This document shows, one piece after another, positions 1 through 19,258 of a stretch of DNA of 64,000 bases (position 1 is the stretch's first letter; each line of letters starts with the position of its first letter). The DNA is from Euglena gracilis (lineage: Eukaryota), in the NCBI GenBank assembly GCA_039621445.1, contig CP154954.1, positions 39,269,816 to 39,333,815 on the forward strand. Direction: 5' to 3'. The translations under genes were made by a program, and so were the position numbers. Under the pieces are notes generated by a model. It ran no database searches. It saw nothing but the letters and a program-made list of their open reading frames with translations, and had not been told where the DNA came from.

Positions 1-597
1 GAGGAACAGCCAAAAATGGGAGTTGAAGAAATTTTCCGTTTTGTTGAGCGAAAATTGTCATCCAGGGACTCTCAAGACATGATACACAGTTCCAGGGAGC
101 CAAATCCATTTGGAAACCGGAGGGCCAGGTCTGCTAAGGCAGATCGGGCCAAGGGGTCCAGGACACCCTCCCCAACACGGTCAGCAAAGGGGGGCGAAAC
201 GGTGGCAAAACTGTCCGTTGGAAAATCAGATTCACAGGTGGCAGCCCCTGCGACCAATGCAAACATGAACCCCCCCGTGCAAAATCCAGTGCCAGTGGTT
301 CGATCACAGTCATTGCCACCCCCCCAGCAATCTCAATTTGGCAATGGGGGGGGATGGAGAAATGATTCTGGGTGGAATTCCAATGCCAATGCCAATTTTC
401 AGGGAAATCAGTGGTGGCATTCAAATCAACAGAATTTTGACTCACAGTCTGGTGGAGGCAAAGGCAAAGGCAAAGGCAAGGGCAAAGGAAACAATTCTTG
501 GGGGAAAGGAAACAATGGAAATGACTGGTCTAGGGGAAAGGGCCAGGATGGTGGAAAAGGCAAAGGAAAAGGAAGGGGGAAAGGAAACCGTTGCTAG
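1..597 (+). CDS. gag: Gag-like protein, C-terminal part (5'-truncated by window), with G/K/N/W-rich tail
   Basis: Frame open from base 1 to TAG 595-597 and lies upstream of pol. Ends in GKGKGKGKG low-complexity sequence. No CCHC knuckle visible. Confidence 0.65.
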   Translation, partial: EEQPKMGVEEIFRFVERKLSSRDSQDMIHSSREPNPFGNRRARSAKADRAKGSRTPSPTRSAKGGETVAKLSVGKSDSQVAAPATNANMNPPVQNPVPVVRSQSLPPPQQSQFGNGGGWRNDSGWNSNANANFQGNQWWHSNQQNFDSQSGGGKGKGKGKGKGNNSWGKGNNGNDWSRGKGQDGGKGKGKGRGKGNRC

Positions 598-1450
598 GAC
601 AGCCGGGGTGGACCGTTGGGGGCGGGAGCCGCCCCGGGCTCGCATACCCAGCCCCACACAAAGACATACGCAACTCCCAAATGGCATGAAAAATCTCGTG
701 CGAGTGAAAACACGATGAAAAATCTGCCATCCCAGGAGACCTTTGCGCAAGGTGTGTCCAGTGTGTCGGGTGCGTGCGTGCGTGACGTGCAAATCTGTGA
801 TTCAGCCCAAATCTGTAAAAAACCAGACCTCATAAGAGGTCGTGCACAGCCTTCCGTAAAGAAAAGAGCTTTAGACCTTTTTTGCGGTAAAGGCTCGGTT
901 GGGGATTGCCTGAGAGAGCAGGGGTTTAAGGTTGTGTCAGTGGACATAAACCCCAGATTTAACCCAACCCACTGTGCAAATATTTTGGAATGGAGATATT
1001 GGAGGTACCCCCCCGGATATTTTCAGATCATCGCTGCGGGGGTGCCCTGTACAGAATATAGCTTGGCCAAAACATTGGGAGTCAGAAATTTGGAGGTGGC
1101 AGATCGGCTGGTCAAAAAAACTTTGGAGATTGTCGAATATTTCAAACAAAAATGGTGGTGGATTGAAAATGCCGGTAATGGACTTTTGCGGAAAAGACCC
1201 TGTGTTCAAAATCTGACTTTTTGATGTTGATTATTGTCAATTTTCAGATTGGGGATATCAAAAGCCCACCCGAATCTGGGGGAGCGAAAATCTGAGCAAG
1301 CTACAAAACAAACTTTGTGATGGCCAGACCTGCCCGAATTTGATTCCTGGGGGGAGGAGTCACCGAGAAAAGTTGGGAGGATATGGAATGACAGTTGGCA
1401 CCCAGAAAAAATGGAGGATGCCCAAACAACTGGTGGAGTATTTGTTAACC
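598..1450 (+). CDS. C5-cytosine DNA methyltransferase domain (split by +1 frameshift at 1218-1224)
   Basis: Motif I LDLFCGKGS (~871-897), VVSVDI, catalytic motif IV AGVPCTEYS (~1036-1062), motif VI WWIENAG. After the shift: DYCQFSDWGYQKPTRIW (motif VIII-like) and WRMPKQLVEYLL (motif X-like). Confidence 0.88.
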
Positions 1451-4400
1451 GTGTTGGAACGAAAAAGCGGATATCGTAGGGAGGATTATGCTGTTAGGAA
1501 AGTTTGTATGGAGGAAATTGAGAAGGAATTTCGGGTTAAGGCGGAACGGGATTGTTTTGCAACCAGCCAAAATGCCAGGTGTGAAAAGTTTTACGGGGAG
1601 GATGATGATGCCATGAAAAAGGATTGGGGGGCGGAGGAAACGTTGTGGATGAACCCCCCCTGGACTTTGTGGCCTGAGGTGGCTGAAAAATTGCAAAATT
1701 CCAATTGTCGGGCAATTTGTATTTGCCCAGACTGGAATAGGAGGTGGGTGAAAAATCTGGTGGCTATGGCTGTCAAAAAGATTTATTTTCCCAAGGGGAC
1801 AAAGTTGTTTGAGGCTGATGGGAGGATTTTGAGGGGTACCCGTTGGGGGGTGTGGGCCTTGTTGATGGATAGAAGGCAACCCTCCCAGGGGGGGGCAGCC
1901 CCAGGGAAGAAAAAATTGGTACGGCTGAAAAAAAGAATGTTGAGGGGGACAAAAACTCGGGGAGGAGCAAAGAAACTCGGGGAGGACAGACAACTGCTGT
2001 TAAAAACACAGATTCGGTTGGCAAAAAAAAAAAAAAAAACAGTCCGAATTTTGATTGACACGGGGGCGGAGGCAAACCTCATTCGACAAGGGTTGATAGG
2101 GGACCACCTAATGTATCCTGCTAAGGACCCGTTAAGGTTTGAAACTGCCAATGGGCAAACTTTGGCGGGGGGGAGCAGATGTGCAAAGGTGAAAATGATC
2201 CTACAACAAAATTGGAATGAGGAAAGGGAAATTGAGAGGGTGGAATATGATGTTGAATTTTATGAGGCAAATATCAAAGTTGATGCCATTCTTTCTTATC
2301 CATGGTTGGCAGAGGCAAAACTGGGAATTTTTCCACACCACAAGGCGTTGGTGAAAGACAGCCCCGACCTGATTTTTTTGCGGGGTGTTGAAAGACGGAG
2401 GGGTCCGCAAAAATTCAGGGATGACACAAAATTTTCAGTGGACAATGTGACTGTGGCGGACGGGTCTTCGTTTGGGTTGCAAAAACTTGGTCTTTGTTTG
2501 CCATTGGAAGGGTTGGACCAGGAATTGCAATTTTTGAGCGATGAGGACCTGGGGGAGGTAGCCACAAATTTGGAGGGAAGTGACCCCCCAGTGCAAGTTA
2601 TCAACCGAATGATAATTGCAAGGGAGGGGGAGGACAAAAAAGAGGATGAACGGGTAGTCAAGTTGAGGGAACAAGTTTTGGAAGATTACCGGGGGACGGT
2701 ATTTCGGTCATCGCCATTTCCAGACCCCCCCGAAAGAGGACAATATGGTTATGCATACATACCTTTGAAGGAGGGGGCAAAGCCAACCAGACAGAAACCT
2801 TTTTTCATGCACGGTGAGCGGAAAGAGGCACTTGAAAAAATCACACAAGACTGGCTAGACAAAAAATACATTGAGCCAGCCACAGCCAAAAATTCTGAAT
2901 GGCTGTCCCAGACTTTTCCAGTTCCAAAAAAATCCAACGATTTTCCTTGGAGGGGGGTGGTGGACCTCAGGGGGCCAAACAGCCAAACAAGGCGATGCAA
3001 CTACCCCCTACCCAAAATTGAAGACATTTTGGTCAAACATGGTGCAAACCAAATGTTTTCGATCATCGATTTGAAGCAAGCTTTCCACCAACAACCCCTA
3101 CACCCAGAAAGTCGACCCATAACGTGTTGTTTCACCCCCAAAGGGATTTTTCAGTGGAGGGTGAACGTAATGGGTTTGACAAATGCCCCCCAACAATTTC
3201 AGCAAATGATCGATGACCGTTTGACACCAGTAAGGGATATCGCCACAGGGTATATAGACGACATACTGGTGGGGACAACGGTCGGGGAAGGGGAGGATCT
3301 AGTGGGGGCACACGAAAAAGATTTGAGGAGGGTGTTGGAAGTGCTCAAAACAGAACTTTTGGTGGCTGATGAATTCAAAGCCAAACTTTTTGTGGAGGAG
3401 GTTGAATTTTGTGGACAAATTTTAGGAAACGGGACTAGGAGGCCTGCACCGGGTAAGTTACGAGCGATCGAAAAGTGGGAGATTCCAAAAACAATTACGG
3501 CTTTGAGAGCCTTTTTGGGATTCACAAATTATTACAATGCATACATTCACATGTATGCGGAAGTAGCTGCCCGGTTGCAAGACAAATTGAAAGTCCCCAG
3601 GGAGGTGGGAAAGAAAGGAAGTCGAAAACCTGTGGAATTTGATGGGGAGGATTTAAAAGCTTTTGAGGAGCTGAAAAAAAGGTTGTGTTCGGGCCTAATG
3701 TTGCAACGGGTAGACCCAGATAAACCCTTTGTGCTAAGGGTTGATGCCAGTGGGTACGCCTTGGGGGCAACGTTAGAGCAAATGAAGGAGGGGGGAGGAA
3801 GACCCACAGCCCAGGATGTGATTGAGAAAAAAACTGTGCCAGTGGCTTTTATGTCTCGAAAATTGACCGAGGGGCAAAGAAAATGGACCCCCAGGGAGTT
3901 GGAGACGTACGCCATAATTTTGGCACTACAAAAATGGGAAAGTTGGATAGGATTGCAACCCGTTTTGGTTTTAACCGACCACCAAAGTTTGGAGTCTTGG
4001 ACAAGGGAGGTCCTAGACACCCCCAGTGGTCCGGTTGGGAGGAGGGCGAGATGGCATCAAATTTTCTCCAAGTATGACTTGACGGTGGGATATATCCCGG
4101 GTAAAGAAAATACCATAGCCGATATCCTTAGTCGGTGGGCGTACCCAGCTTCACAGGCCTTAAGGGATATAAGTAAGCACGGGTCAGCCGAAGACAAGGA
4201 TGAAATGGAAAATTTTATCCGGGAGGAAAAAGAAGAGGAAAAACAGTGTTTGGAGATAAGAATCAAAAACCAGCCCAATGTACGTAATGCCTGGATACGA
4301 GGGGTGACAACCCGTAGTGGCAAAAACGTAACACCCGAGGAGGAAAAAGGAGAGTGCACAAGGAGGGGAACCGAGGGTGGGGTAGACCCAGGAGGAAAAG

Positions 4401-6064
4401 ACACCCCTGTGGACACCCACTCACAAGGGCCCAGGAAAGAAAAGAAACGAGTTCATTTTTGGGATGAGAAAGTGGGGGGGGAGACGACCCCTGTCCCGGA
4501 GACGGCTGAAAGTTCGAGGGGGGACACTTGTATGGAAGTGGGGGACGCCCTGCCAAGTACGACCCCTAAGGATATTAAGCCCGTATGGGAGCGTGATTGG
4601 GGGGAAGCATATTCCCGATGCCCCACATGGAAAGAAAAATGGGAGGCTACCAAAGGTGATTCAGTTTGGCCCAAAAGCTATAAAGTCTTGAACGGTCAAC
4701 TGTTTTTCGAGGAAAAGTTGTGTGTGCCTGAAAGTTTCCAACACTTGGTGATTCAAGAAAATCACGAGTTTTTGGGGCACGTTGGCCCTGAAAAAGTTTG
4801 GAAACACATGACAATCCGTTTTGTTTGGGCTGATGAAAAGGCTGCAAAGCAACTCAACCAAAATTGCAGCAAAAACTGTTCCACATGCCAAGCGAGTGTG
4901 AGGGGGGAGAGTTTGAAAGGACCGATCGAGTCCACACCCATACCCCCTGCACTAATGACAAGTGTTGCCATCGATTTGTTTCGGATGCCAAGGGTTTTAC
5001 ACGATGGGGGGGAGTATGACACCCTAGCCCTTTGTGTGGATAGGCATTCGGGTTGGATTGTGGGGGTTGCATGCAAGGACAAGGGATTGACCGGTGCCAA
5101 GTTGGCTAAGGAAATGGTGAAAAATCAGTGGAGGCCTTTTGGGGTTCCCTCGGTCATCTCAAGTGACCAAGGGAGCCATTTCACAAGCACTTGGTGGAAA
5201 AACATGTGTGCGCTTTTGGGGATTAGGCAAGCGTATTCCCAAGCATACCACCACCAAGCAAACGGGAGGGTTGAGAGAGCCGGACAACAGGTAATGGAGG
5301 TGTTGAGAAAATTGTATGTGGAAGAAAAAATTAATTGGGTTGAAGCTTTACCCCAAGTTTTGGACCGAATTCATGACGTAAAAGGGGAAAGCGGATTGAG
5401 CCCATATGAAATTGTGACGGGAAGGGAAAGACCATTGGCAGGGGTACCCTACCAACCACCCAAAGAATGTGAGGATTCGGTGGAGTTTTTCCGAAGGATG
5501 CAAGACATTGATGGGAGGGTGGCTAGGATACTCAACAATAAACATGAGGATGGGGAGGCAAGGATAAATAAGGGGAGGAAAGAAATGGAACCCCTAAAGG
5601 TGGGGATGATGGTTTGGTATAGGAGACCCGAAGGGTCGGGTGATAAGCTTGACTCTAGGTGGGTGGGACCTGGGGTCGTGAAGGGTAGAGAAGGGGAACG
5701 GAGTTATGTTATCGAAATGAAATCTGGGGTGGAGACAAAAGCTCATAGGAGTTTTTTGAAGGAATATCGAGAACCCCAAGTGGAAGGTAAGGGGGTGCCT
5801 CTTTTTTATTATAAACGGACCGAAAAAGAAGAAGAGGCATTACCTGATGAGTGGGAGGTGGAAAAAATTCTAAAGCACCGGAAAGGAAAGGATGGAAAGT
5901 GGGAATTTTTGACAAAGTGGGTCGGATATGAGGATGGGGAGGAAACCTGGGAACCGGCTGGAAATTTCATTCACAGATTTAGTGAAGAGTTTGTGAAATA
6001 TTGTCGTGAGAAAAAAGTGAAAGTGGACGTAATGTCCGAATTAAAAATTGACGGTGGGCCATAA
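1223..6064 (+). CDS. pol: Pol polyprotein: DNMT C-terminus, Dam-like MTase, aspartic protease, RT, RNase H, integrase, chromodomain
   Basis: ILIDTGAEAN (protease, ~2057), YIDD (3251-3262), VDASG/RELE/LTDH (RNase H), H..GH...C..C plus SDQG/NGRVE (integrase), WVGP, WEVEKILKHR...KWVGY...TWEP (chromodomain). The frame is uninterrupted. Confidence 0.95.
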   Translation, partial: DVDYCQFSDWGYQKPTRIWGSENLSKLQNKLCDGQTCPNLIPGGRSHREKLGGYGMTVGTQKKWRMPKQLVEYLLTVLERKSGYRREDYAVRKVCMEEIEKEFRVKAERDCFATSQNARCEKFYGEDDDAMKKDWGAEETLWMNPPWTLWPEVAEKLQNSNCRAICICPDWNRRWVKNLVAMAVKKIYFPKGTKLFEADGRILRGTRWGVWALLMDRRQPSQGGAAPGKKKLVRLKKRMLRGTKTRGGAKKLGEDRQLLLKTQIRLAKKKKKTVRILIDTGAEANLIRQGLIGDHLMYPAKDPLRFETANGQTLAGGSRCAKVKMILQQNWNEEREIERVEYDVEFYEANIKVDAILSYPWLAEAKLGIFPHHKALVKDSPDLIFLRGVERRRGPQKFRDDTKFSVDNVTVADGSSFGLQKLGLCLPLEGLDQELQFLSDEDLGEVATNLEGSDPPVQVINRMIIAREGEDKKEDERVVKLREQVLEDYRGTVFRSSPFPDPPERGQYGYAYIPLKEGAKPTRQKPFFMHGERKEALEKITQDWLDKKYIEPATAKNSEWLSQTFPVPKKSNDFPWRGVVDLRGPNSQTRRCNYPLPKIEDILVKHGANQMFSIIDLKQAFHQQPLHPESRPITCCFTPKGIFQWRVNVMGLTNAPQQFQQMIDDRLTPVRDIATGYIDDILVGTTVGEGEDLVGAHEKDLRRVLEVLKTELLVADEFKAKLFVEEVEFCGQILGNGTRRPAPGKLRAIEKWEIPKTITALRAFLGFTNYYNAYIHMYAEVAARLQDKLKVPREVGKKGSRKPVEFDGEDLKAFEELKKRLCSGLMLQRVDPDKPFVLRVDASGYALGATLEQMKEGGGRPTAQDVIEKKTVPVAFMSRKLTEGQRKWTPRELETYAIILALQKWESWIGLQPVLVLTDHQSLESWTREVLDTPSGPVGRRARWHQIFSKYDLTVGYIPGKENTIADILSRWAYPASQALRDISKHGSAEDKDEMENFIREEKEEEKQCLEIRIKNQPNVRNAWIRGVTTRSGKNVTPEEEKGECTRRGTEGGVDPGGKDTPVDTHSQGPRKEKKRVHFWDEKVGGETTPVPETAESSRGDTCMEVGDALPSTTPKDIKPVWERDWGEAYSRCPTWKEKWEATKGDSVWPKSYKVLNGQLFFEEKLCVPESFQHLVIQENHEFLGHVGPEKVWKHMTIRFVWADEKAAKQLNQNCSKNCSTCQASVRGESLKGPIESTPIPPALMTSVAIDLFRMPRVLHDGGEYDTLALCVDRHSGWIVGVACKDKGLTGAKLAKEMVKNQWRPFGVPSVISSDQGSHFTSTWWKNMCALLGIRQAYSQAYHHQANGRVERAGQQVMEVLRKLYVEEKINWVEALPQVLDRIHDVKGESGLSPYEIVTGRERPLAGVPYQPPKECEDSVEFFRRMQDIDGRVARILNNKHEDGEARINKGRKEMEPLKVGMMVWYRRPEGSGDKLDSRWVGPGVVKGREGERSYVIEMKSGVETKAHRSFLKEYREPQVEGKGVPLFYYKRTEKEEEALPDEWEVEKILKHRKGKDGKWEFLTKWVGYEDGEETWEPAGNFIHRFSEEFVKYCREKKVKVDVMSELKIDGGP
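1480..1870 (+). other. Dam-like (phage/DIRS-type) DNA N6-adenine methyltransferase domain within pol, upstream of protease
   Basis: RDCFATSQNARCEKFY (DxFA SAM-binding motif), LWMNPPW (NPPW catalytic motif, codon at 1652), ICICPDW...W. Confidence 0.85.
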
Positions 6065-6100
6065 GCTCTTGAGAGAGCTAGGAGGCCTTGACTCAAGATT

Positions 6101-6114
6101 AAGGGAAGGCAAAG
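6101..6114 (+). promoter_or_regulatory. Polypurine tract of family A
   Basis: AAGGGAAGGCAAAG immediately before the LTR start TGTTTTTCACC; repeated at 11940-11953. Confidence 0.7.
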
Positions 6115-6117
6115 TGC

Positions 6118-8142
6118 TGTTTTTCACCCATCATTAAAATTCCAAATCCGGATTTGCATGTCTGTGTGTGTGCTCGCGCGCACGTGTGTGTGCGCAAATG
6201 CGCATGAGTGTGTGGAGGAGGGAATGGTCACACCCAAGCAACAAGAATCTGCCATGGAAAGAGAATGGAGAAAGGCAGAAAAAGGCCCCGCACGGGGGCC
6301 GGAGTGCAAAGGGGCACCACTGTATATACACCGCCCATTTATTATATTGCCGTTCGCTGTCCCTCTTCCCATCCCTTCCCTCTCCCTACCCCTCGCGTTG
6401 CTTCCCCTCGCATCACAGTTATGCGGTGGTGTTATAAGGGTTCCACAAATCATTCGGATGAGGATGGATTACACCATGGTTGGGAGTCCATGGTCACATT
6501 ATGAACCCCCACTCGGTTTGTTAAGGGGACAGAGTTTTGACAAAAATTCCCCCGGCCCGAGGAGGGGGGGGAGGGCGCCTTGATTTTTTGATAAAAATTC
6601 CCCCGGCCCGAGGAGGGGGGGGGGCGCCTCGATTTTTTGACAAAAATCCCCCCGGCCCGAGGAGGGGGGGGGGGGCGTTCGATTTTTTGACAAAAATCCC
6701 CCCGGCCCGAGGGGGGGCGCCTCGATTTTTTGACAAAAACCCCCCCGGCCCGAGGAGGGGGGGGGGGCGCCTCGATTTTTTGATAAAAATCCCCCCGGCC
6801 CGAGGAGGGGGGGGGGCGTTCGAGTTTTTTGACAAAAATCCCCCCGGCCCGAGGAGGGGGGGGGGGGGCGCTTGATTTTTTGACAAAAATCCCCCCGGCC
6901 CGAGGAGGGGGGGGGGCGCCTTGAATTTTTTTGGACAAAAATCCCCCCGGCCCGAGGAGGGGGGGGGCGTTCGATTTTTTTGACAAAAATTCCCCCGACC
7001 CGAAAAGGGGGGGGGCGCCAACCGAATTTTTACCAAAAATCCCCCGACCCGTTGGAAGGGGGGGGGCAGAACTTGGTGAAGACCCTCATACCACCCGTGA
7101 GAAGCGGGGGGGGGGGCAGCCTAATATTCATTGGTTGGTGAACCAAGTCTTTCCCAAAGGTTTGAAGGCACTTGAAAGCCATAGTCCCTGAAGTTTGTTT
7201 CCCATTTGTTGATTCAAGGAAGAATGGGTGTGGGACATAGGCTTTGGATGAAAGAGTGCCGAATGGAGGATTTCCCCCCCATTGTTGAGGAACGGGGGGG
7301 GGGACGAATTTTTTGGTGTCCGACTAAGGTCGCAAGGGAGGGGGTGTCGGCCGCCGGCTTGCGCCGGCAGCCAAAAATTGCCAGAAGGCGCAAATTTCAA
7401 AGTCGCGGCTAACAGCCAATCAGTTAAAAAAACCCGCGACTTAAATTGGAAGCGGGTCAAATTTCGAAGCGCCTTCGAATTTGTTTTTTTTCACAGAACT
7501 TGAGGGGTTTTCCCCAATATTTGGCAAGAAGGGATACTTTGAAGTTGAATTTGTCATTTGGACTTTGAATCGGAGTATCAAGTTGAGTTTCATTGTTGGT
7601 CATTGATCTATTGAAGTCAATTGTTGTGAAGGAGCCTTTAACACCACCGCCCACCTCCCTATATCCCCGCCATCTTCACCTCCGTCTTCGCCTCCGACGA
7701 CCACTCCTTACCCCAGGTTTGCACATTCCAAAGTTTGCACATTTCACAGTTTTCAGTTTCTCAATTCAAGGTCCCAAAGTCCCAAAGTGGGTTGGTTTGT
7801 GGTTGGCCTTTGGGTTGGTTTGCCATCAAGGTGTGCAAGAGAGAGAGAAGTGAGGTTTTCACATCAAAATGGCAGATCTTTCAGTTTTCACTAAGTTTTC
7901 GGAAACCGTTCAAAAAACGATCCTACGCACCGGCTGGGGGTGGGGAAACCACCTGGGTGAACAAACGGGGGTTGACTTGAGCCCACCAAACCCCGGAGAA
8001 AGCGCAGGCCCCACCCCGGAAACACCACCCCCCCTGTCGGTGGTCCTCCCCACTGGCGAGGACCCCCCTGGGCCCTCGGCCCGAAGGGACTCGGCGGTCG
8101 CGGAGGCGACCGACAGCCCGGGGGTGGCGGACCCGGTGAACA
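6118..8142 (+). repeat. Family A LTR (~2.0 kb), shared between the two tandem units
   Basis: Starts TGTTTTTCACC and ends GGTGAACA (imperfect terminal inverted repeat). Preceded by the PPT, followed directly by the PBS, and duplicated at 11957-14002. Confidence 0.88.
6535..7070. repeat. ~48-50 bp tandem array (about 11 units) inside LTR
   Basis: Unit TTTTTTGACAAAAATCCCCCCGGCCCGAGGAG(G)nCGCCTCGA with variable homopolymer lengths. Confidence 0.9.
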
Positions 8143-11100
8143 TGGTAGCAGAGGCAAAACTGGGAATTTTTCCACACCACAAGGCGTTGGTGAAAGACAG
8201 CCCCGACCTGATTTTTTTGCGGGGTGTTGAAAGACGGAGGGGTCCGCAAAAATTCAGGGATGACACAAAATTTTCAGTGGACAATGTGACTGTGGCGGAC
8301 GGGTCTTCGTTTGGGTTGCAAAAACTTGGTCTTTGTTTGCCATTGGAAGGGTTGGACCAGGAATTGCAATTTTTGAGCGATGAGGACCTGGGGGAGGTAG
8401 CCACAAATTTGGAGGGAAGTGACCCCCCAGTGCAAGTTATCAACCGAATGATAATTGCAAGGGAGGGGGAGGACAAAAAAGAGGATGAACGGGTAGTCAA
8501 GTTGAGGGAACAAGTTTTGGAAGATTACCGGGGGACGGTATTTCGGTCATCGCCATTTCCAGACCCCCCCGAAAGAGGACAATATGGTTATGCATACATA
8601 CCTTTGAAGGAGGGGGCAAAGCCAACCAGACAGAAACCTTTTTTCATGCACGGTGAGCGGAAAGAGGCACTTGAAAAAATCACACAAGACTGGCTAGAAA
8701 AAAAATACATTGAGCCAGCCACAGCCAAAAATTCTGAATGGCTGTCCCAGACTTTTCCAGTTCCAAAAAAATCCAACGATTTTCCTTGGAGGGGGGTGGT
8801 GGACCTCAGGGGGCCAAACAGCCAAACAAGGCGATGCAACTACCCCCTACCCAAAATTGAAGACATTTTGGTCAAACATGGTGCAAACCAAATGTTTTCG
8901 ATCATCGATTTGAAGCAAGCTTTTCATCAACAACCCCTACACCCAGAAAGTCGACCCATAACGTGTTGTTTCACCCCCAAAGGGATTTTTCAGTGGAGGG
9001 TGAACGTAATGGGTTTGACAAATGCCCCCCAACAATTTCAGCAAATGATCGATGACCGTTTGACACCAGTAAGGGATATCGCCACAGGGTATATAGACGA
9101 CATACTGGTGGGGACAACGGTCGGGGAAGGGGAGGATCTAGTGGGGGCACACGAAAAAGATTTGAGGAGGGTGTTGGAAGTGCTCAAAACAGAACTTTTG
9201 GTGGCTGATGAATTCAAAGCCAAACTTTTTGTGGAGGAGGTTGAATTTTGTGGACAAATTTTAGGAAACGGGACTAGGAGGCCTGCACCGGGTAAGTTAC
9301 GAGCGATCGAAAAGTGGGAGATTCCAAAAACAATTACGGCTTTGAGAGCCTTTTTGGGATTCACAAATTATTACAATGCATACATTCACATGTATGCGGA
9401 AGTAGCTGCCCGGTTGCAAGACAAATTGAAAGTCCCCAGGGAGGTGGGAAAGAAAGGAAGTCGAAAACCTGTGGAATTTGATGGGGAGGATTTAAAAGCT
9501 TTTGAGGAGCTGAAAAAAAGGTTGTGTTCGGGCCTAATGTTGCAACGGGTAGACCCAGATAAACCCTTTGTGCTAAGGGTTGATGCCAGTGGGTACGCCG
9601 TGGGGGCAACGTTAGAGCAAATGAAGGAGGGGGGAGGAAGACCCACAGCCCAGGATGTGATTGAGAAAAAAACTGTGCCAGTGGCTTTTATGTCTCGAAA
9701 ATTGACCGAGGGGCAAAGAAAATGGACCCCCAGGGAGTTGGAGACGTACGCCATAATTTTGGCACTACAAAAATGGGAAAGTTGGATTGGATTGCAACCC
9801 GTTTTGGTTTTAACCGACCACCAAAGTTTGGAGTCTTGGACAAGGGAGGTCCTAGACACCCCCAGTGGTCCGGTTGGGAGGAGGGCGAGATGGCATCAAA
9901 TTTTCTCCAAGTATGACTTGACGGTGGGATATATCCCGGGTAAAGAAAATACCATAGCCGATATCCTTAGTCGGTGGGCGTACCCAGCTTCACAGGCCTT
10001 AAGGGATATAAGTAAGCACGGGTCAGCCGAAGACAAGGATGAAATGGAAAATTTTATCCGGGAGGAAAAAGAAGAGGAAAAACAGTGTTTGGAGATAAGA
10101 ATCAAAAACCAGCCCAATGTACGTAATGCCTGGATACGAGGGGTGACAACCCGTAGTGGCAAAAACGTAACACCCGAGGAGGAAAAAGGAGAGTGCACAA
10201 GGAGGGGAACCGAGGGTGGGGTAGACCCAGGAGGAAAAGACACCCCTGTGGACACCCACTCACAAGGGCCCAGGAAAGAAAAGAAACGAGTTCATTTTTG
10301 GGATGAGAAAGTGGGGGGGGAGACGACCCCTGTCCCGGAGACGGCTGAAAGTTCGAGGGGGGACACTTGTATGGAAGTGGGGGACGCCCTGCCAAGTACG
10401 ACCCCTAAGGATATTAAGCCCGTATGGGAGCGTGATTGGGGGGAAGCATATTCCCGATGCCCCACATGGAAAGAAAAATGGGAGGCTACCAAAGGTGATT
10501 CAGTTTGGCCCAAAAGCTATAAAGTCTTGAACGGTCAACTGTTTTTCGAGGAAAAGTTGTGTGTGCCTGAAAGTTTCCAACACTTGGTGATTCAAGAAAA
10601 TCACGAGTTTTTGGGGCACGTTGGCCCTGAAAAAGTTTGGAAACACATGACAATCCGTTTTGTTTGGGCTGATGAAAAGGCTGCAAAGCAACTCAACCAA
10701 AATTGCAGCAAAAACTGTTCCACATGCCAAGCGAGTGTGAGGGGGGAGAGTTTGAAAGGACCGATCGAGTCCACACCCATACCCCCTGCACTAATGACAA
10801 GTGTTGCCATCGATTTGTTTCGGATGCCAAGGGTTTTACACGATGGGGGGGAGTATGACACCCTAGCCCTTTGTGTGGATAGGCATTCGGGTTGGATTGT
10901 GGGGGTTGCATGCAAGGACAAGGGATTGACCGGTGCCAAGTTGGCTAAGGAAATGGTGAAAAATCAGTGGAGGCCTTTTGGGGTTCCCTCGGTCATCTCA
11001 AGTGACCAAGGGAGCCATTTCACAAGCACTTGGTGGAAAAACATGTGTGCGCTTTTGGGGATTAGGCAAGCGTATTCCCAAGCATACCACCACCAAGCAA

Positions 11101-11903
11101 ACGGGAGGGTTGAGAGAGCCGGACAACAGGTAATGGAGGTGTTGAGAAAATTGTATATAAAAAAAAAAATTAATTGGGTTGAAGCTTTACCCCAAGTTTT
11201 GGACCGAATTCATGACGTAAAAGGGGAAAGCGGATTGAGCCCATATGAAATTGTGACGGGAAGGGAAAGACCATTGGCAGGGGTACCCTACCAACCACCC
11301 AAAGAATGTGAGGATTCGGTGGAGTTTTTCCGAAGGATGCAAGACATTGATGGGAGGGTGGCTAGGATACTCAACAAAAAACATGAGGAGGAGGTGGCAA
11401 GGATAAATAAGGGGAGGAAAGAAATGGAACCCCTAAAGGTGGGGATGATGGTTTGGTATAGGAGACCCGAAGGGTCGGGTGATAAGCTTGACTCTAGGTG
11501 GGTGGGACCTGGGGTCGTGAAGGGTAGAGAAGGGGAACGGAGTTATGTTATCGAAATGAAATCTGGGGTGGAGACAAAAGCTCATAGGAGTTTTTTGAAG
11601 GAATATCGAGAACCCCAAGTGGAAGGTAAGGGGGTGCCTCTTTTTTATTATAAACGGACCGAAAAAGAAGAAGAGGCATTACCTGATGAGTGGGAGGTGG
11701 AAAAAATTCTAAAGCACCGGAAAGGAAAGGATGGAAAGTGGGAATTTTTGACAAAGTGGGTCGGATATGAGGATGGGGAGGAAACCTGGGAACCGGCTGG
11801 AAATTTCATTCACAGATTTAGTGAAGAGTTTGTGAAATATTGTCGTGAGAAAAAAGTGAAAGTGGACGTAATGTCCGAATTAAAAATTGACGGTGGGCCA
11901 TAA
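7869..11903 (+). CDS. pol: Chimeric ORF: LTR-encoded leader fused in frame to protease tail-RT-RNaseH-integrase-chromodomain (1344 aa)
   Basis: Uninterrupted ORF. From ...VAEAKLGIFPHH onward it is nearly identical to the first pol. Confidence 0.85.
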   Translation: MADLSVFTKFSETVQKTILRTGWGWGNHLGEQTGVDLSPPNPGESAGPTPETPPPLSVVLPTGEDPPGPSARRDSAVAEATDSPGVADPVNMVAEAKLGIFPHHKALVKDSPDLIFLRGVERRRGPQKFRDDTKFSVDNVTVADGSSFGLQKLGLCLPLEGLDQELQFLSDEDLGEVATNLEGSDPPVQVINRMIIAREGEDKKEDERVVKLREQVLEDYRGTVFRSSPFPDPPERGQYGYAYIPLKEGAKPTRQKPFFMHGERKEALEKITQDWLEKKYIEPATAKNSEWLSQTFPVPKKSNDFPWRGVVDLRGPNSQTRRCNYPLPKIEDILVKHGANQMFSIIDLKQAFHQQPLHPESRPITCCFTPKGIFQWRVNVMGLTNAPQQFQQMIDDRLTPVRDIATGYIDDILVGTTVGEGEDLVGAHEKDLRRVLEVLKTELLVADEFKAKLFVEEVEFCGQILGNGTRRPAPGKLRAIEKWEIPKTITALRAFLGFTNYYNAYIHMYAEVAARLQDKLKVPREVGKKGSRKPVEFDGEDLKAFEELKKRLCSGLMLQRVDPDKPFVLRVDASGYAVGATLEQMKEGGGRPTAQDVIEKKTVPVAFMSRKLTEGQRKWTPRELETYAIILALQKWESWIGLQPVLVLTDHQSLESWTREVLDTPSGPVGRRARWHQIFSKYDLTVGYIPGKENTIADILSRWAYPASQALRDISKHGSAEDKDEMENFIREEKEEEKQCLEIRIKNQPNVRNAWIRGVTTRSGKNVTPEEEKGECTRRGTEGGVDPGGKDTPVDTHSQGPRKEKKRVHFWDEKVGGETTPVPETAESSRGDTCMEVGDALPSTTPKDIKPVWERDWGEAYSRCPTWKEKWEATKGDSVWPKSYKVLNGQLFFEEKLCVPESFQHLVIQENHEFLGHVGPEKVWKHMTIRFVWADEKAAKQLNQNCSKNCSTCQASVRGESLKGPIESTPIPPALMTSVAIDLFRMPRVLHDGGEYDTLALCVDRHSGWIVGVACKDKGLTGAKLAKEMVKNQWRPFGVPSVISSDQGSHFTSTWWKNMCALLGIRQAYSQAYHHQANGRVERAGQQVMEVLRKLYIKKKINWVEALPQVLDRIHDVKGESGLSPYEIVTGRERPLAGVPYQPPKECEDSVEFFRRMQDIDGRVARILNKKHEEEVARINKGRKEMEPLKVGMMVWYRRPEGSGDKLDSRWVGPGVVKGREGERSYVIEMKSGVETKAHRSFLKEYREPQVEGKGVPLFYYKRTEKEEEALPDEWEVEKILKHRKGKDGKWEFLTKWVGYEDGEETWEPAGNFIHRFSEEFVKYCREKKVKVDVMSELKIDGGP
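8143..8153 (+). promoter_or_regulatory. Primer binding site, tRNA-iMet
   Basis: TGGTAGCAGAG directly after the LTR-terminal CA, complementary to the 3' end of eukaryotic initiator tRNA-Met (...CUCUGCUACCA). Confidence 0.85.
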
Positions 11904-11956
11904 GCTCTTGAGAGAGCTAGGAGGCCTTGACTCAAGATTAAGGGAAGGCAAAGTGC

Positions 11957-14002
11957 TGTTTTTCACCCATCATTAAAATTCCAAATCCGGATTTGCATGT
12001 CTGTGTGTGTGCTCGCGCGCACGTGTGTGTGCGCAAATGCGCATGAGTGTGTGGAGGAGGGAATGGTCACACCCAAGCAACAAGAATCTGCCATGGAAAG
12101 AGAATGGAGAAAGGCAGAAAAAGGCCCCGCACGGGGGCCGGAGTGCAAAGGGGCACCACTGTATATACACCGCCCATTTATTATATTGCCGTTCGCTGTC
12201 CCTCTTCCCATCCCTTCCCTCTCCCTACCCCTCGCGTTGCTTCCCCTCGCATCACAGTTATGCGGTGGTGTTATAAGGGTTCCACAAATCATTCGGATGA
12301 GGATGGATTACACCATGGTTGGGAGTCCATGGTCACATTATGAACCCCCACTCGGTTTGTTAAGGGGACAGAGTTTTGACAAAAATTCCCCCGGCCCGAG
12401 GAGGGGGGGGAGGGCGCCTTGATTTTTTGATAAAAATTCCCCCGGCCCGAGGAGGGGGGGGGGCGCCTCGATTTTTTGACAAAAATCCCCCCGGCCCGAG
12501 GAGGGGGGGGGGGCGTTCGATTTTTTGACAAAAATCCCCCCGGCCAGAGGGGGGGCGCCTCGATTTTTTGACAAAAACCCCCCCGGCCCGAGGGGGGGGG
12601 GGGGCGCCTCGATTTTTTGACAAAAATCCCCCCGGCCCGAGGAGGGGGGGGGGCGTTCGAGTTTTTTGACAAAAATCCCCCCGGCCCGAGGAGGTGGGGG
12701 GGGGGGGGGCTGGGGGGGGGGGCGCTTGATTTTTTGACAAAAATCCCCCCGGCCCGAGGAGGGGGGGGGGGCGCCTTGAATTTTTTTGGACAAAAATCCC
12801 CCCGGCCCGAGGAGGGGGGGGGCGTTCGATTTTTTTGACAAAAATTCCCCCGACCCGAAAAGGGGGGGGGCGCCAACCGAATTTTTACCAAAAATCCCCC
12901 GACCCGTTGGAAGGGGGGGGGCAGAACTTGGTGAAGACCCTCATACCACCCGTGAGAAGCGGGGGGGGGGGGGGCAGCCTAATATTCATTGGTTGGTGAA
13001 CCAAGTCTTTCCCAAAGGTTTGAAGGCACTTGAAAGCCATAGTCCCTGAAGTTTGTTTCCCATTTGTTGATTCAAGGAAGAATGGGTGTGGGACATAGGC
13101 TTTAGATGAAAGAGTGCCGAATGGAGGATTTCCCCCCCATTGTTGAGGAACGGGGGGGGGGACGAATTTTTTGGTGTCCGACTAAGGTCGCAAGGGAGGG
13201 GGTGTCGGCCGCCGGCTTGCGCCGGCAGCCAAAAATTGCCAGAAGGCGCAAATTTCAAAGTCGCGGCTAACAGCCAATCAGTTAAAAAAACCCGCGACTT
13301 AAATTGGAAGCGGGTCAAATTTCGAAGCGCCTTCGAATTTGTTTTTTTTCACAGAAATTGAGGGGTTTTCCCCAATATTTGGCAAGAAGGGATACTTTGA
13401 AGTTGAATTTGTCATTTGGACTTTGAATCGGAGTATCAAGTTGAGTTTCATTGTTGGTCATTGATCTATTGAAGTCAATTGTTGTGAAGGAGCCTTTAAC
13501 ACCACCGCCCACCTCCCTATATCCCCGCCATCTTCACCTCCGTCTTCGCCTCCGACGACCACTCCTTACCCCAGGTTTGCACATTCCAAAGTTTGCACAT
13601 TTCACAGTTTTCAGTTTCTCAATTCAAGGTCCCAAAGTCCCAAAGTGGGTTGGTTTGTGGTTGGCCTTTGGGTTGGTTTGCCATCAAGGTGTGTGTGAGA
13701 GAGAGAAGTGAGATTTGCAATGCAAATGGCAGATTTTTCGATTTTGAGCAAAATTTCGGAAACCGCTAAAAAAACGATCCTACGCGCCGGCTGGGGTTGG
13801 GGAAACCACCTGGGTGAAAAAAAGGGGGTTGACTTGAGCCCACCAACCCCCGGAGAAAGCGCAGGCCCCACCCCGGAAACACCCACCCCCCTGCTGTCGG
13901 TGGTCCTCCCCACCGGCGAGGACCCCCCGGGGCCCTCGGCCCGAAGGGACTCGGCGGTCGCGGGGGCGACCGGCAGTCCGGGGGTGGCGAACCCGGTAAA
14001 CA
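11957..14002 (+). repeat. Family A 3' LTR
   Basis: Copy of 6118-8142 ending GGTAAACA. Contains the same tandem array (~12374-12925). The last ~310 bp are diverged from the first LTR. Confidence 0.88.
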
Positions 14003-18824: not shown

Positions 18825-19258
18825 AGTGTACGTCCCCTGACTCTATTCCCACTGCCTGTCGGCCTACTTACACCCTCCCGTGGGAACAGAACCAGGAGAG
18901 TAACAAAAAAGAAAGTCTTTCACTTAACTATTAGTTTTTATTGCCTTTGGGCTTATGCAGAGCACAAGGCAGGTGGAGGAGCCCTATGGGCTACGGAAAT
19001 CGATGCCAAGTTCTTGGCTGTCCTTTCCGGACTTCAAATCAGAAAAATCAAACTTGAAACTCAAGTCTTGAATCAAAGACCAGAATGGAATAAAATAATA
19101 CCACCTGTGAAAAGAGAAGGCAGATCCGAGATAGGATAGGCCATTCCTAATTCTGCAATTTGTATTGCAGAACCTGGAATGATACTATCTGGCATGCCAC
19201 TGTACATTCTGCAGATTGCTGCTATGCACAGTGCCATGTTCATGCTGCCTGGTACACA
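18825..19258 (-). repeat. 3' LTR of gag-only element
   Basis: Direct repeat of 27359-27792. On the minus strand it reads TGTGTACCAGGC...GACGTACACT and is preceded by the PPT GGGAGGGGA (19259-19267 region). Confidence 0.93.

What the first reader, a model, noticed from the sequence alone, without database searches (positions are those of the whole stretch)
598..6064. Gypsy chromodomain retrotransposon encoding both a C5-cytosine and an N6-adenine DNA methyltransferase in its pol polyprotein
Seen: between gag and protease lie two adjacent MTase domains. The first is a C5 DNMT (LDLFCGKGS, catalytic PC in AGVPCTEYS, IEN, YCQF..GYQKPTRIW). The second is a Dam-like amino-MTase (DCFATSQN, intact NPPW) fused in frame to PR-RT-RH-IN-chromodomain. 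Established: Dam-like MT domains are typical of DIRS (tyrosine recombinase) retroelements, and C5 DNMTs are known in retrotransposons of Symbiodiniaceae and charophyte algae. I do not know of a DDE-integrase LTR element with both chemistries in tandem plus a chromodomain. Inference: the element packages two writers that could mark its own cDNA (5mC and 6mA or 4mC) to mimic host chromatin or evade defence, while the chromodomain steers integration.
Basis: partly seen in the sequence, partly recalled or inferred. Interest (0 to 1): 0.92.

Follow-up and report, generated by a model that had tools for sequence, protein, structure and literature searches.

The report
Retrotransposon carrying two DNA methyltransferases
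This is a damaged copy of a Euglena jumping gene whose family carries a cytosine and an adenine DNA methyltransferase plus a chromatin-reading domain, a real and unusual design that a 2026 preprint has already described.

Summary
Window 1-6064 holds a Ty3/gypsy chromodomain element, cut at its 5' end by the window start. Between gag and protease lie a C5-cytosine MTase domain (862-1447) and a Dam-like PF05869 domain (1481-1870). Folds, profiles and motifs support both assignments.

This copy is damaged. The C5-MTase is split over two frames at 1221/1222, where other copies carry two more letters. Five private amino-acid changes cluster around motif VI, and an in-frame TAG (595-597) separates gag from pol.

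The nearest named protein (99% identity) is a Euglena gracilis transcript. A May 2026 bioRxiv preprint (10.64898/2026.05.21.726589) already reports E. gracilis LTR elements with DAM, DNMT and a chromodomain, named "EpiLTRs". The architecture is therefore no longer new.

Three points go beyond what I read in that preprint. They rest on relatives outside the window:
- The C5 module belongs to a large family of ~200-aa mini-MTases, and its stand-alone members sit in giant-virus contigs.
- All 48 retroelement-borne copies fall on one side of one tree branch.
- Relatives show all six orders of DNMT, DAM and protease.

Both MTase domains look constrained. Enzyme activity and targets remain untested.

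Novelty: overtaken. bioRxiv 10.64898/2026.05.21.726589 (section 8 read) describes LTR elements with DAM, DNMT and a chromodomain in Cymbomonas tetramitiformis and in Euglena gracilis. E. gracilis is the source of the window's 99%-identical transcript protein.

Mechanism: self-marking of cDNA, mimicry or evasion of defence remains inference. Nothing here tests activity. The preprint reports no gain of 6mA when representative eukaryotic DAMs were expressed in dam- E. coli (section 9).

This copy cannot make an intact DNMT, so any function belongs to the family and not to this locus.

The parts
1..594 (+). C-terminal part of gag, with a Gly/Lys-rich tail. The 5' end and the 5' LTR lie off the window.
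   Evidence: ORF open at its 5' end. No Pfam hit. Called gag from its position upstream of pol, which is inference.
595..597 (+). In-frame TAG between gag and the MTase/pol frame
   Evidence: Whether it is a read-through stop or a private nonsense change could not be told. No row for it appears among the 40 shown of 282 differences.
862..1221 (+). C5-cytosine MTase domain, N-part in frame 1. It holds motif I (LDLFCGKGS), motif IV (VPC) and motif VI (IEN-AG; other copies read ENPR).
1219..1224 (+). Frame break inside the DNMT (TTT TGA). Other copies have two more letters after 1221 and 1222, giving F-V-D.
   Evidence: read-laying table 4, contigs carrying the two letters: X1 11, X2 11, X15 1, X20 2. 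The two window pieces abut on relatives.
1223..1447 (+). C5-MTase domain, C-part in frame 2. It holds DVDYCQF..GYQKPTR, a conserved Cys-Cys-His stretch (CDGQTCPNL..H) and the final helix (KWRMPKQLVEYLL).
1481..1870 (+). Dam-like N6-adenine MTase domain (PF05869) with RDCFA and NPPW
   Evidence: Pfam 42 bits against a cut-off of 28.1. Model pLDDT 89.7. Folds: PCIF1 Z 10.2, T4 Dam Z 8.6, EcoDam Z 8.4.
2024..2040 (+). A17 run coding KKKKK, where the transcript protein and relatives read NGEE or similar. A private, in-frame oddity of this copy.
   Evidence: Contigs are cut at 2013-2048.
2051..2330 (+). Aspartic protease (LIDTGAE)
   Evidence: Weak Pfam hits to gag-asp_proteas and Asp_protease_2. 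Motif position.
2924..4075 (+). Reverse transcriptase (YIDD at 3251-3262) and RNase H
   Evidence: PF00078, PF17917 and PF17919. Ty3 RT 4ol8 E 5e-49.
4724..5281 (+). Integrase: H2C2 zinc domain and DDE core
   Evidence: PF17921 and PF00665. PFV integrase E 1.5e-10.
5846..5986 (+). C-terminal chromodomain (DEWEVEKIL..LTKWVGY..ETWEP)
   Evidence: PF00385 39.2 bits. CDYL2 chromodomain E 1e-9.
6101..6114 (+). Purine-rich tract (AAGGGAAGGCAAAG), a candidate polypurine tract
   Evidence: Sequence. Inference.
6115..8142 (+). Inferred LTR (TG...CA) holding a 50-nt tandem repeat array at 6535-7118. It is shared with a second, 5'-deleted element downstream.
   Evidence: Repeat with 11954-14002. It ends in CA at both copies and is followed at 8143 by a tRNAi-Met-type primer binding site. 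The summed contig depth falls about tenfold after 6077. The 5' edge is inferred only.
8143..11903 (+). Second internal region: primer-binding-site-like TGGTAGCAGAGG (8143-8154) joined directly to the end of the protease coding region, then RT-RH-IN-chromodomain. It has no gag and no MTases.
   Evidence: 99.2-100% identical to 2301-6064 in 500-nt bins.
11954..14002 (+). Third LTR copy of the tandem arrangement

Best explanation
Identity: the stretch is one decayed copy of a very abundant Euglena gracilis Ty3/gypsy (chromovirus-like) LTR retrotransposon of the kind recently named EpiLTR. Its layout is gag - [C5-cytosine MTase - Dam-like N6-adenine MTase - protease - RT - RNase H - integrase - chromodomain].

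Shown here by computation:
- the identity and folds of the domains;
- conservation of their catalytic motifs across relatives;
- constraint on both MTase domains comparable to protease and RT;
- other copies with an unbroken DNMT frame;
- a 99%-identical protein in a transcriptome.

This copy has a frame break and private substitutions in the DNMT, so it cannot supply that enzyme itself.

How the family most likely works (inferred, not shown):
1. The two MTases are made as part of Gag-Pol, upstream of the protease, so they are carried into the particle or released next to the new cDNA.
2. The C5 enzyme gives the new copy the CG methylation that is the default state of Euglena DNA.
3. The adenine enzyme adds 6mA, a mark tied in this host to a minority of active promoters.
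4. The chromodomain on the integrase steers insertion towards methyl-lysine-marked chromatin.

Both MTase modules are of virus/prokaryote type rather than host DNMT1/3 type. The C5 module is a ~200-aa mini-enzyme whose stand-alone relatives lie in giant-virus contigs.
For: Domains:
- Pfam on the window finds Dam, RVT_1, RNase H, rve, H2C2 and Chromo.
- PF00145 is above its cut-off in 5 of 6 intact relatives scanned.
- A profile of the DNMT domain hits DNMT1 catalytic motifs IV-VI first in the PDB, E 9e-4.
- The DNMT model has pLDDT 89.9. Every listed Foldseek match is a C5 DNA MTase: DNMT3A/B/C, DNMT1, DIM2, MET1 and M.HaeIII, E 7e-9 to 3e-7, with 205 matches at E<=1e-3.
- The DAM model has pLDDT 89.7. 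It matches N6-adenine MTases: PCIF1 Z 10.2, T4 Dam Z 8.6 at rmsd 2.5, EcoDam Z 8.4.
- Phage families: phrog_363/757 for the DNMT, phrog_111 and TIGR01712 for the DAM.

Conservation:
- 46 of 51 retroelement-context DNMT domains keep all four motif patterns tested.
- 26 of 26 DAM domains of at least 100 aa keep NPP[W/F/Y] and D.F[A/S].

Constraint:
- For the locus pair L003/L007, dS is saturated while dN is 0.249 (DNMT), 0.257 (DAM) and 0.348 (protease). RT of L003/L008 has dN 0.211.

Family in the host:
- 99% identity to EP00667_Euglena_gracilis_P000113.
- About 15,000-20,000 contig pieces laid per DNA run.
- Contigs with the two extra letters at 1221/1222 are seen in all 4 runs laid, including a metatranscriptome.
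- The majority of copies read ENPR where the window reads ENAG.

Host epigenome, and DAM-LTRs more often 6mA-marked in E. gracilis: preprint section 10. De novo CG methylation by other retrotransposon DNMTs: abstract of PMC5890265.

Giant-virus link:
- 34 IMG/VR loci encode stand-alone homologues, 4 on contigs named GVMAG.
- 4 of 5 records tested also encode the NCLDV major capsid protein.
Against: - No enzyme activity was tested.
- The preprint found no rise in 6mA with representative eukaryotic DAMs in dam- E. coli. It also reports low or undetectable LTR expression in E. gracilis.
- The window copy itself is broken.
- PF00145 on the window piece is below its cut-off (19.1 against 22 bits).
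- The DAM fold matches RNA adenine MTases (PCIF1, KsgA, Erm) at least as well as DNA ones, so the substrate is open.
- Evidence for transcription is thin. It rests on one transcriptome-derived ORF that starts inside the DAM domain and on contigs from runs that may hold DNA.
- The dN/dS evidence comes from environmental relatives, not from Euglena copies.
- The preprint places the EpiLTR DNMT as sister to DNMT4. I could not test that against the giant-virus link.
Confidence: 0.75

Rival explanations
1. The Dam-like domain is not a DNA 6mA writer. It methylates RNA (for example the element's own transcript or its cap), or RNA:DNA hybrids, or ssDNA during reverse transcription. Alternatively it has only a structural or binding role.
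For: - The best fold matches are RNA N6-adenosine MTases: PCIF1 at E 1e-4 and Z 10.2, then KsgA/DIMT1/Erm at Z 8.3-8.6.
- The domain is only ~135 aa.
- The preprint reports no gain of 6mA in dam- E. coli and itself raises a hybrid substrate.
Against: - Sequence families that match are phage DNA adenine MTases: PF05869 at 42 bits, TIGR01712 and phrog_111.
- T4 Dam and EcoDam match with the lowest rmsd, 2.5-2.8 A at Z 8.4-8.6.
- NPP[W/F/Y] and D.F[A/S] are kept in 26 of 26 domains, which argues against a purely structural role.
- DAM-LTRs are more often 6mA-marked in E. gracilis according to the preprint.
Confidence: 0.25
2. The MTases act mainly in trans on the host genome or on other elements. 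With this many copies they would help to make or keep the near-complete CG methylation of Euglena, rather than marking the element's own cDNA.
For: - The family is extremely abundant.
- E. gracilis has near-default CG methylation.
- For Symbiodinium, the 2018 paper raised the possibility that retrotransposon DNMTs affect the host epigenome (abstract).
Against: - There is no direct evidence here.
- LTR expression in E. gracilis is reported as low or undetectable.
- The position of the domains inside Gag-Pol, upstream of the protease, favours action inside the particle.
- The two readings do not exclude each other.
Confidence: 0.3
3. The dual-MTase arrangement is an artefact: a nested insertion, an assembly chimera, or two relic domains drifting neutrally.
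For: - The window copy has a frame break.
- The region is repeat-rich with a tandem LTR-internal-LTR arrangement.
- The preprint warns of nested insertions and assembly artefacts in E. gracilis.
Against: - The order DNMT-DAM-PR-RT is seen in one open frame in 9 stored proteins of 8 clusters at 50-60% identity.
- Contigs of 4 of 4 laid runs span the DNMT with the frame kept.
- Catalytic motifs are conserved.
- dN is far below a saturated dS.
Confidence: 0.03

Closest known systems
Euglena gracilis 'EpiLTR' (DAM + DNMT + chromodomain LTR retrotransposons; bioRxiv 10.64898/2026.05.21.726589, sections 6-11 read)
   Same: Same host, by the 99%-identical transcript protein. Same class (Ty3/gypsy-like LTR element). 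Same three epigenetic modules.
   Different: The main text I read does not give the Euglena domain order or sequences, and supplements were closed, so identity of family could not be checked. The window copy is broken in the DNMT.
Cymbomonas tetramitiformis EpiLTR (same preprint)
   Same: Chromovirus-like element with DAM, DNMT and a chromodomain. Its DNMT is said to group with the Euglena one (bootstrap 100).
   Different: There the DNMT is appended to the 3' end of pol. Here DNMT and DAM lie between gag and protease.
KnitGypsy-Dnmt3 of Klebsormidium nitens, and SymbioDIRS-DNMT3 / SymbioLINE-DNMT of Symbiodiniaceae (PMC5890265; abstract and section 9 read)
   Same: A C5 MTase inside a retrotransposon ORF. 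Conserved catalytic residues and purifying selection. The idea of self-methylating the cDNA.
   Different: Those DNMTs are Dnmt3-type or another type, and they have no adenine MTase partner. The present module is a ~200-aa mini-enzyme with giant-virus stand-alone relatives.
DIRS retroelements with a Dam-like MT domain (PF05869)
   Same: The same adenine-MTase family. The preprint derives LTR-borne DAMs from DIRS ones.
   Different: DIRS elements use a tyrosine recombinase. This element has a DDE integrase, LTR-type ends and a tRNAi-Met-type primer binding site.
Chromoviruses (Ty3/gypsy elements with a C-terminal integrase chromodomain)
   Same: PR-RT-RH-IN-chromodomain order. Best solved relative is Ty3.
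   Different: Ordinary chromoviruses carry no DNA methyltransferase.
Stand-alone ~200-aa C5 MTases of giant-virus and phage-like contigs (phrog_757/363; loci L016-L064)
   Same: Same compact domain, with motifs I, IV, VI, the 'YC..K.T' motif and the Cys-Cys-His stretch, at 33-50% identity.
   Different: They are free genes under their own purifying selection (dN/dS about 0.1), not part of a polyprotein.

Membership tests
Ty3/gypsy LTR retrotransposon (chromovirus type) | PR, RT (YxDD), RNase H, and integrase with HHCC and DDE, in that order | tested here: met
   Pfam; motif positions; Ty3 Gag-Pol 7q5b E 5e-63
Ty3/gypsy LTR retrotransposon (chromovirus type) | Chromodomain at the C-terminus of the integrase | tested here: met
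   PF00385 39.2 bits; CDYL2 chromodomain E 1e-9. The aromatic W/W/Y positions were read from the sequence; their role as a cage is recalled.
Ty3/gypsy LTR retrotransposon (chromovirus type) | Two LTRs, a primer binding site, a polypurine tract and a target-site duplication | tested here: inconclusive
   The 5' LTR lies off the window. The 3' LTR 6115-8142 is inferred from the repeat, its CA end and the following TGGTAGCAGAGG, which equals the start of a tRNAi-Met primer binding site (passage in PMC1797187). The target-site duplication cannot be seen.
C5-cytosine DNA methyltransferase (PF00145 fold) | Motif I (FxGxG-type), motif IV Pro-Cys, motif VI ENV-type | tested here: met
   LDLFCGKGS, VPC and IEN in the window. 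They align to DNMT1 motifs. Nearly invariant in 44 rows. The window has A-G where the family has P-R after EN.
C5-cytosine DNA methyltransferase (PF00145 fold) | Pfam score above the gathering cut-off | tested here: inconclusive
   The window piece scores 19.1 against 22 bits. 5 of 6 intact relatives score 24.4-28.2 bits, matching profile positions 2-118 of 324 only.
C5-cytosine DNA methyltransferase (PF00145 fold) | Fold of the catalytic domain | tested here: met
   The model of relative P0039 has pLDDT 89.9. All listed Foldseek matches are C5 DNA MTases, best E 7e-9. This is a model of a relative at 55-63% identity, not of the broken window copy.
C5-cytosine DNA methyltransferase (PF00145 fold) | Ordinary target-recognition domain between motifs VIII and IX | tested here: not met
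   Only about 50 residues lie there, with nearly invariant Cys, Cys and His (C152, C157, H170 of P0039) plus C125. A zinc site is my inference.
C5-cytosine DNA methyltransferase (PF00145 fold) | Intact reading frame in this copy | tested here: not met
   Frame break at 1221/1222
Dam-like N6-adenine MTase (PF05869) | Pfam score above the cut-off and the (D/N)PP(Y/F/W) motif | tested here: met
   42 bits against 28.1. NPPW at 1652-1663. Invariant D, F, W, N, P, P in alignment A3.
Dam-like N6-adenine MTase (PF05869) | Amino-MTase fold | tested here: met
   pLDDT 89.7. PCIF1 Z 10.2, T4 Dam Z 8.6, EcoDam Z 8.4. Z values near 8 are middling by the tool's own note.
Dam-like N6-adenine MTase (PF05869) | DNA adenine methylation activity | not testable with these tools
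   The preprint reports a negative result for representative eukaryotic DAMs in E. coli.
EpiLTR (preprint definition) | LTR retrotransposon with DAM, DNMT and a chromodomain in one unit | tested here: met
EpiLTR (preprint definition) | DNMT in the clade sister to DNMT4, grouping with the Cymbomonas EpiLTR DNMT | not tested
   No reference DNMT4 or Cymbomonas sequences were in hand, and supplements were closed.

The most novel reading that the evidence does not exclude
The C5 module is not a derivative of a host DNMT. It is a giant-virus-type mini-methyltransferase of about 200 aa, with a Cys/His stretch in place of the usual target-recognition domain. One Ty3/gypsy lineage acquired it once. 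That lineage then spread through many uncultured protists and repeatedly reshuffled DNMT, DAM and protease; all six orders are found, along with forms lacking DAM. Euglena EpiLTRs would then be one tip of a large, so far undescribed radiation of retroelements that carry virus-derived DNA-modifying enzymes.
Probability: 0.35. Interest if true: 0.65.

Novelty: already known. Interest (0 to 1): 0.4.

Why it matters
A mobile element that brings its own 5mC writer, 6mA writer and chromatin reader could set the epigenetic state of each new insertion instead of leaving that to the host. That bears on how genomes such as Euglena's became almost fully CG-methylated.

The class has been published as a preprint, so this locus adds a worked example, and a broken one, rather than a discovery.

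The possibly new value lies in the relatives:
- the link of the C5 module to giant-virus mini-MTases;
- a tree pattern compatible with a single capture;
- free permutation of the three N-terminal modules.

Together these give a testable account of where the toolkit came from.

Tried and rejected
- Own genome: the genome search 'own' found no genome held. Copy-by-copy Ka/Ks in the host was therefore impossible.
- The search for related loci with alignment A1 found no conserved stretch, because the two window rows are half gaps. I redid it with A4.
The DAM alignment was instead made from whole stored proteins and window references. As a result, DAM domains of relatives with the window's domain order are not in A3.
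- The search for homologous proteins for DAM-length proteins gave only 4 hits.
- Earlier findings of this scan: three look-ups returned nothing.
- The 21-nt continuation that other copies show after 6069 is not elsewhere in the window. The window's 3' flank differs from that of the contigs, and I did not resolve why.
- No tRNA gene lies in the window, so the host's own tRNAi-Met 3' end was not checked.
- RNA evidence: X15 is only guessed to be RNA, and X20 is a metatranscriptome that may hold DNA. I do not count these as proof of transcription.
- The first dN/dS script timed out and was rewritten. Pairs among retroelement loci had saturated dS, so no ratio can be quoted.
- I considered reading the window DNMT through its break with a four-letter step and dropped the idea. 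It would also shift the frame at the in-frame TTT-T of motif I.
- Depth is summed over contigs and is not a copy number.


Full report
**What is in the window**

Positions 1-597 are the 3' part of a gag-like frame that runs off the window start and ends in TAG (595-597).

The same frame goes on from 598 to a TGA at 1222-1224. It carries these motifs:
- KRALDLFCGKGS (862-897)
- GVPCTEYS (1039-1062)
- WWIENAGNG (1156-1182)

A second frame, open from 1217 to 6064 (1615 codons), carries:
- DVDYCQFSDWGYQKPTRIWG (1223-1282)
- a Cys/His-rich stretch
- RDCFATS (1547-1567) and LWMNPPWTL (1643-1669)
- protease (LIDTGAEA, 2051-2074)
- RT (YIDD, 3251-3262) and RNase H
- an integrase with its zinc and DDE parts
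- a chromodomain (5846-5986)

Pfam on the window gives the following:

| Family | E-value or score | Note |
|---|---|---|
| RT_RNaseH | 8.5e-24 | |
| RVT_1 | 7.5e-18 | |
| rve | 2.6e-10 | |
| Chromo | 6.4e-10 | |
| Integrase_H2C2 | 6.8e-6 | |
| Dam PF05869 | 42 bits | cut-off 28.1 |
| DNA_methylase PF00145 | 19.1 bits | cut-off 22, so below threshold |

The best solved relative of the long frame is Ty3 Gag-Pol (7q5b, E 5.4e-63), followed by Ty3 RT (4ol8, 5.4e-49). The C5 domain is split over two frames, and an in-frame stop separates gag from it.

**The break is private to this copy**

On intact relatives the frame-1 piece ends, and the frame-2 piece begins, at the same alignment position.

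I laid Logan contigs of four runs on 1-6500. Contigs with two more letters, one after 1221 and one after 1222, were found in all four runs:

| Run | Contigs with the two letters | Depth with them / depth |
|---|---|---|
| X1 | 11 | 26,504 / 132,137 |
| X2 | 11 | not quoted |
| X15 | 1 | 86.3 / 91.6 |
| X20 | 2 | 9.68 / 17.7 |

With those letters the text reads F-V-D-V-D-Y-C-Q-F, as in relatives.

I translated 38 of the 40 best-supported single-letter differences that one search shows (282 in all). Five are amino-acid changes within 1097-1174. At each the other copies carry the family's usual residue. For example, the window reads ENAG where others read ENPR. In PR-RT-RH-IN-chromodomain, 15 of 20 differences are synonymous.

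An A17 run at 2024-2040 codes KKKKK where the transcript protein and relatives have NGEE-like residues. So the locus is a decayed member of a family whose majority keeps the DNMT.

**Host and abundance**

No genome is held for the window.

The best protein match to the long frame is 99% identical, 1540 aa, and named EG_transcript_113 / EP00667_Euglena_gracilis_P000113. That ORF starts inside the DAM domain, so it does not show an expressed DNMT.

20 of 24 listed runs hold the stretch. 19 of the 20 bear one coded organism label, and the other is a leaf-litter metatranscriptome.

About 20,000 contig pieces of X1 and 15,500 of X2 lie on the element. Summed depth falls about tenfold after 6077. 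Depth summed over contigs is not a copy number.

**Are the two domains what they seem?**

*C5 domain.*
- PF00145 is above its cut-off in 5 of 6 intact relatives scanned (24.4-28.2 bits), matching profile positions 2-118 only.
- A 12-row profile of the domain finds DNMT1 catalytic domains first in the PDB (E 9e-4, motifs IV-VI). M.HaeIII comes at E 0.28.
- A 44-row alignment shows these nearly invariant residues, in P0039 numbering: L3, L5, F6, G8, S11, D27, C62, S66, E101, N102, P103, Y124, C125, K134, T136, C152, C157, H170 and P190.
- The AlphaFold model of relative P0039 (55-63% identical to the window pieces) has pLDDT 89.9 and pTM 0.79.
- Every listed Foldseek match is a C5 DNA methyltransferase (DNMT3A/B/C, DNMT1, DIM2, MET1, M.HaeIII), with E from 7e-9 to 2.6e-7. 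There are 205 matches at E<=1e-3.
- The domain is short, about 205 aa. Only about 50 residues lie where a target-recognition domain normally sits, and that segment holds the conserved Cys, Cys and His. A zinc site there is my inference.

*Dam-like domain.*
- In an 11-row alignment D32, F34, W64, N66, P67 and P68 are invariant.
- The model of the window's own domain has pLDDT 89.7 and pTM 0.85.
- Foldseek puts PCIF1 (cap N6-adenosine MTase) first at E 1.1e-4, then KsgA/DIMT1. MTA1c and CcrM come lower.
- The Foldseek-independent search gives PCIF1 Z 10.2, T4 Dam Z 8.6 (rmsd 2.5, 104 aligned), Erm/KsgA Z 8.3-8.6 and EcoDam Z 8.4.
- By the tool's own note, Z near 8 is middling. The fold says 'N6-adenine-type MTase' but does not tell DNA from RNA.
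- Sequence families are phage DNA MTases: phrog_111 at 1.5e-11, and TIGR01712 at 7e-11, which is below its cut-off.

**Relatives, constraint and shuffling**

Word-based searches found polyproteins at about 50-60% identity with the same order in one frame, DNMT-DAM-PR-RT-RH-IN-chromodomain. Others had different orders.

A full HMMER scan with the DNMT profile found 6,833 representative proteins at E<=1e-3. Of these, 2,949 were at E<=1e-10 and 715 at E<=1e-30.

I assigned domain order among the 185 stored proteins by local hmmsearch and blastp:

| Order | Proteins | Ids |
|---|---|---|
| DNMT-DAM-PR | 9 (8 clusters) | P0002, P0003, P0004, P0005, P0006, P0012, P0020, P0025, P0031 |
| PR-DAM-DNMT | 5 (4 clusters) | P0007, P0008, P0009, P0010, P0032 |
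| DAM-PR-DNMT | 4 (3 clusters) | P0024, P0033, P0077, P0087 |
| PR-DNMT-DAM | 2 | P0029, P0065 |
| DAM-DNMT-PR | 1 | P0068 |
| DNMT-PR-DAM | 1 | P0049 |

All six orders therefore occur, two of them on single proteins only. There are also forms with a DNMT but no DAM. Many of the stored proteins are fragments, so 'no DAM' is often uncertain. Metagenome loci L002-L004 and L007 also show DAM-PR-DNMT-RT.

Motif patterns are kept in 104 of 127 DNMT domains of at least 185 aa. The figure is 46 of 51 for those in retroelement context, and most misses are N-terminally cut rows. All 26 of 26 DAM domains of at least 100 aa keep NPP[W/F/Y] and D.F[A/S].

For the locus pair L003/L007, dS is saturated while dN is 0.249 (DNMT), 0.257 (DAM) and 0.348 (protease). 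RT of L003/L008 has dN 0.211. The two MTase domains are thus at least as constrained as the protease. No ratio can be quoted, and these are environmental relatives, not Euglena copies.

**Where the C5 module comes from**

Many hits are free proteins of about 200-210 aa that match the profile end to end.
- Metagenome loci L016-L027 hold such a gene without RT nearby, under dN/dS about 0.08-0.15 among close pairs.
- Next to it L025 has a D5-type primase (phrog_1156, 2e-35). L016 has a collagen-repeat protein and a Herpes_ori_bp-type helicase.
- A scan of IMG/VR found 34 loci, 4 of them on contigs named GVMAG.
- 4 of 5 viral records tested also encode the NCLDV major capsid protein above its cut-off, and 0 of 14 control genomes do.
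- The protein-atlas look-up names about 210-aa 'DNA cytosine methyltransferase' clusters labelled Viruses/Uroviricota or Archaea. This is a lead only.

In a quick ML tree of 126 domains, one branch (SH-aLRT 99) separates two groups. One side holds 34 rows: 29 free proteins and 5 of unknown context. The other holds 92 rows, including all 48 retroelement-context rows.

With 35 virus or no-RT loci added (169 rows), the labels 'retroelement' and 'virus' need one change only. The separating branches have SH-aLRT 65-92.

The tree is unrooted, so the direction of transfer is not shown. The preprint places the EpiLTR DNMTs as sister to DNMT4 in a tree of eukaryotic families. I had no reference sequences to test that.

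**What is already in print**

Three full-text searches returned one work that describes this architecture. The search terms were:
- retrotransposon + cytosine methyltransferase + dinoflagellate + DNMT
- Euglena + retrotransposon + DNA methyltransferase + chromodomain
- 'EpiLTR'

That work is bioRxiv 10.64898/2026.05.21.726589, dated 22 May 2026. I read its outline, sections 6-10 and passages of 5 and 11. It reports the following:
- DAM domains in non-DIRS LTR elements in several lineages.
- 'EpiLTRs' with DAM, DNMT and a chromodomain in C. tetramitiformis (DNMT at the 3' end of pol) and in E. gracilis ('structurally distinct configuration').
- Near-default CG methylation in E. gracilis, with 6mA at a subset of promoters.
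- More DAM-LTRs 6mA-marked in E. gracilis.
- Low or undetectable LTR expression there.
- No 6mA gain from eukaryotic DAMs in dam- E. coli.

PMC5890265 (abstract and section 9 read) describes earlier DNMT-bearing retrotransposons and their de novo CG activity.

**Structure around the element**

2301-8142 recurs at 8141-14002 with 98.7% identity. In 500-nt bins the internal part is 99.2-100% identical, and the last ~640 nt are 94-96% identical.

Both units end in ...AACA (8142 and 14002). After 8142 comes TGGTAGCAGAGG. This equals the first 12 letters of a primer binding site made complementary to human tRNAi-Met (passage in PMC1797187). That string is joined directly to the end of the protease coding region, where the first copy reads TGGTTGGCAGAGG.

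I read this as LTR (6115-8142, preceded by a purine tract at 6101-6114), then a primer binding site, then a 5'-deleted second element, then a third LTR (11954-14002). The deletion may have arisen by mispairing at the site-like stretch. This last step and the LTR's 5' edge are inference. An assembly artefact is not excluded.

**Verdict**

The finding is a true dual-methyltransferase chromodomain Gypsy element, seen here as a broken copy. The host is one for which the class was described months ago. The mechanism (self-marking of new copies with 5mC and 6mA, with chromodomain-guided integration) is plausible and remains untested. The possibly new points come from relatives, not from the window: the giant-virus link of the mini-DNMT, the pattern compatible with a single capture, and the permutation of modules.

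Noticed in passing
window 14988-18604 (-) and 40133-44234 (+): Two copies of a second LTR-element family. It has a Dam-like domain whose motif reads NPPP instead of NPP[W/F/Y] (PF05869 E 4.6e-4, below its cut-off), followed by RT, RNase H and integrase. No C5 MTase or chromodomain was detected. The minus-strand copy has a frame break inside the Dam-like domain.
   Followed up: partly
window 49477-54101 (-): A GC-rich (65-70%) non-LTR retrotransposon with an Exo_endo_phos endonuclease, RT and RNase H. It lies in a block whose composition differs sharply from the ~50% GC around it.
   Followed up: partly
window 6115-8142, 8143-11903, 11954-14002: Tandem LTR-internal-LTR arrangement. The second internal region starts with a tRNAi-Met-type primer binding site (TGGTAGCAGAGG) joined straight to the protease end, so it lacks gag and both MTases. 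The first copy has a look-alike stretch (TGGTTGGCAGAGG, 2303-2315) at the joint.
   Followed up: partly
window 6535-7118 and 12374-12973: An array of about 50-nt tandem repeats inside the inferred LTR. It gives Pro/Gly-rich open frames on both strands that are probably not genes.
   Followed up: no
window 2024-2040: A run of 17 A, in frame, codes KKKKK just upstream of the protease active site. The 99%-identical transcript protein has NGEEK there.
   Followed up: partly
window 23534-27202 (-), 28162-31189 (-), 35448-39125 (+): Long gag-like frames with coiled-coil-like regions and CCHC zinc knuckles (PF00098 in 37053-39122). They probably belong to the second LTR family. One of them is 1222 aa long with no clear family.
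   Followed up: no
L025 7980-9421; L016 1283-2053; L031-L064: Free ~200-300-aa homologues of the element's C5 MTase lie in giant-virus-type contigs. 4 of 5 records tested have an NCLDV capsid gene. In L025 the next ORF weakly matches an adenine MTase family (EcoRI_methylase, E 2.5e-4).
   Followed up: partly
stored proteins P0029, P0049, P0065, P0068, P0077, P0087 and others: Among environmental relatives the three modules DNMT, DAM and protease occur in all six possible orders ahead of RT. Two of these orders are seen on single proteins only.
   Followed up: partly
alignment A5 (P0039 residues 125, 152, 157, 170); window 1316-1381: Nearly invariant Cys-Cys-Cys-His in the short segment that replaces the usual target-recognition domain of the mini C5 MTase. 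This is a possible zinc site and was not tested.
   Followed up: no
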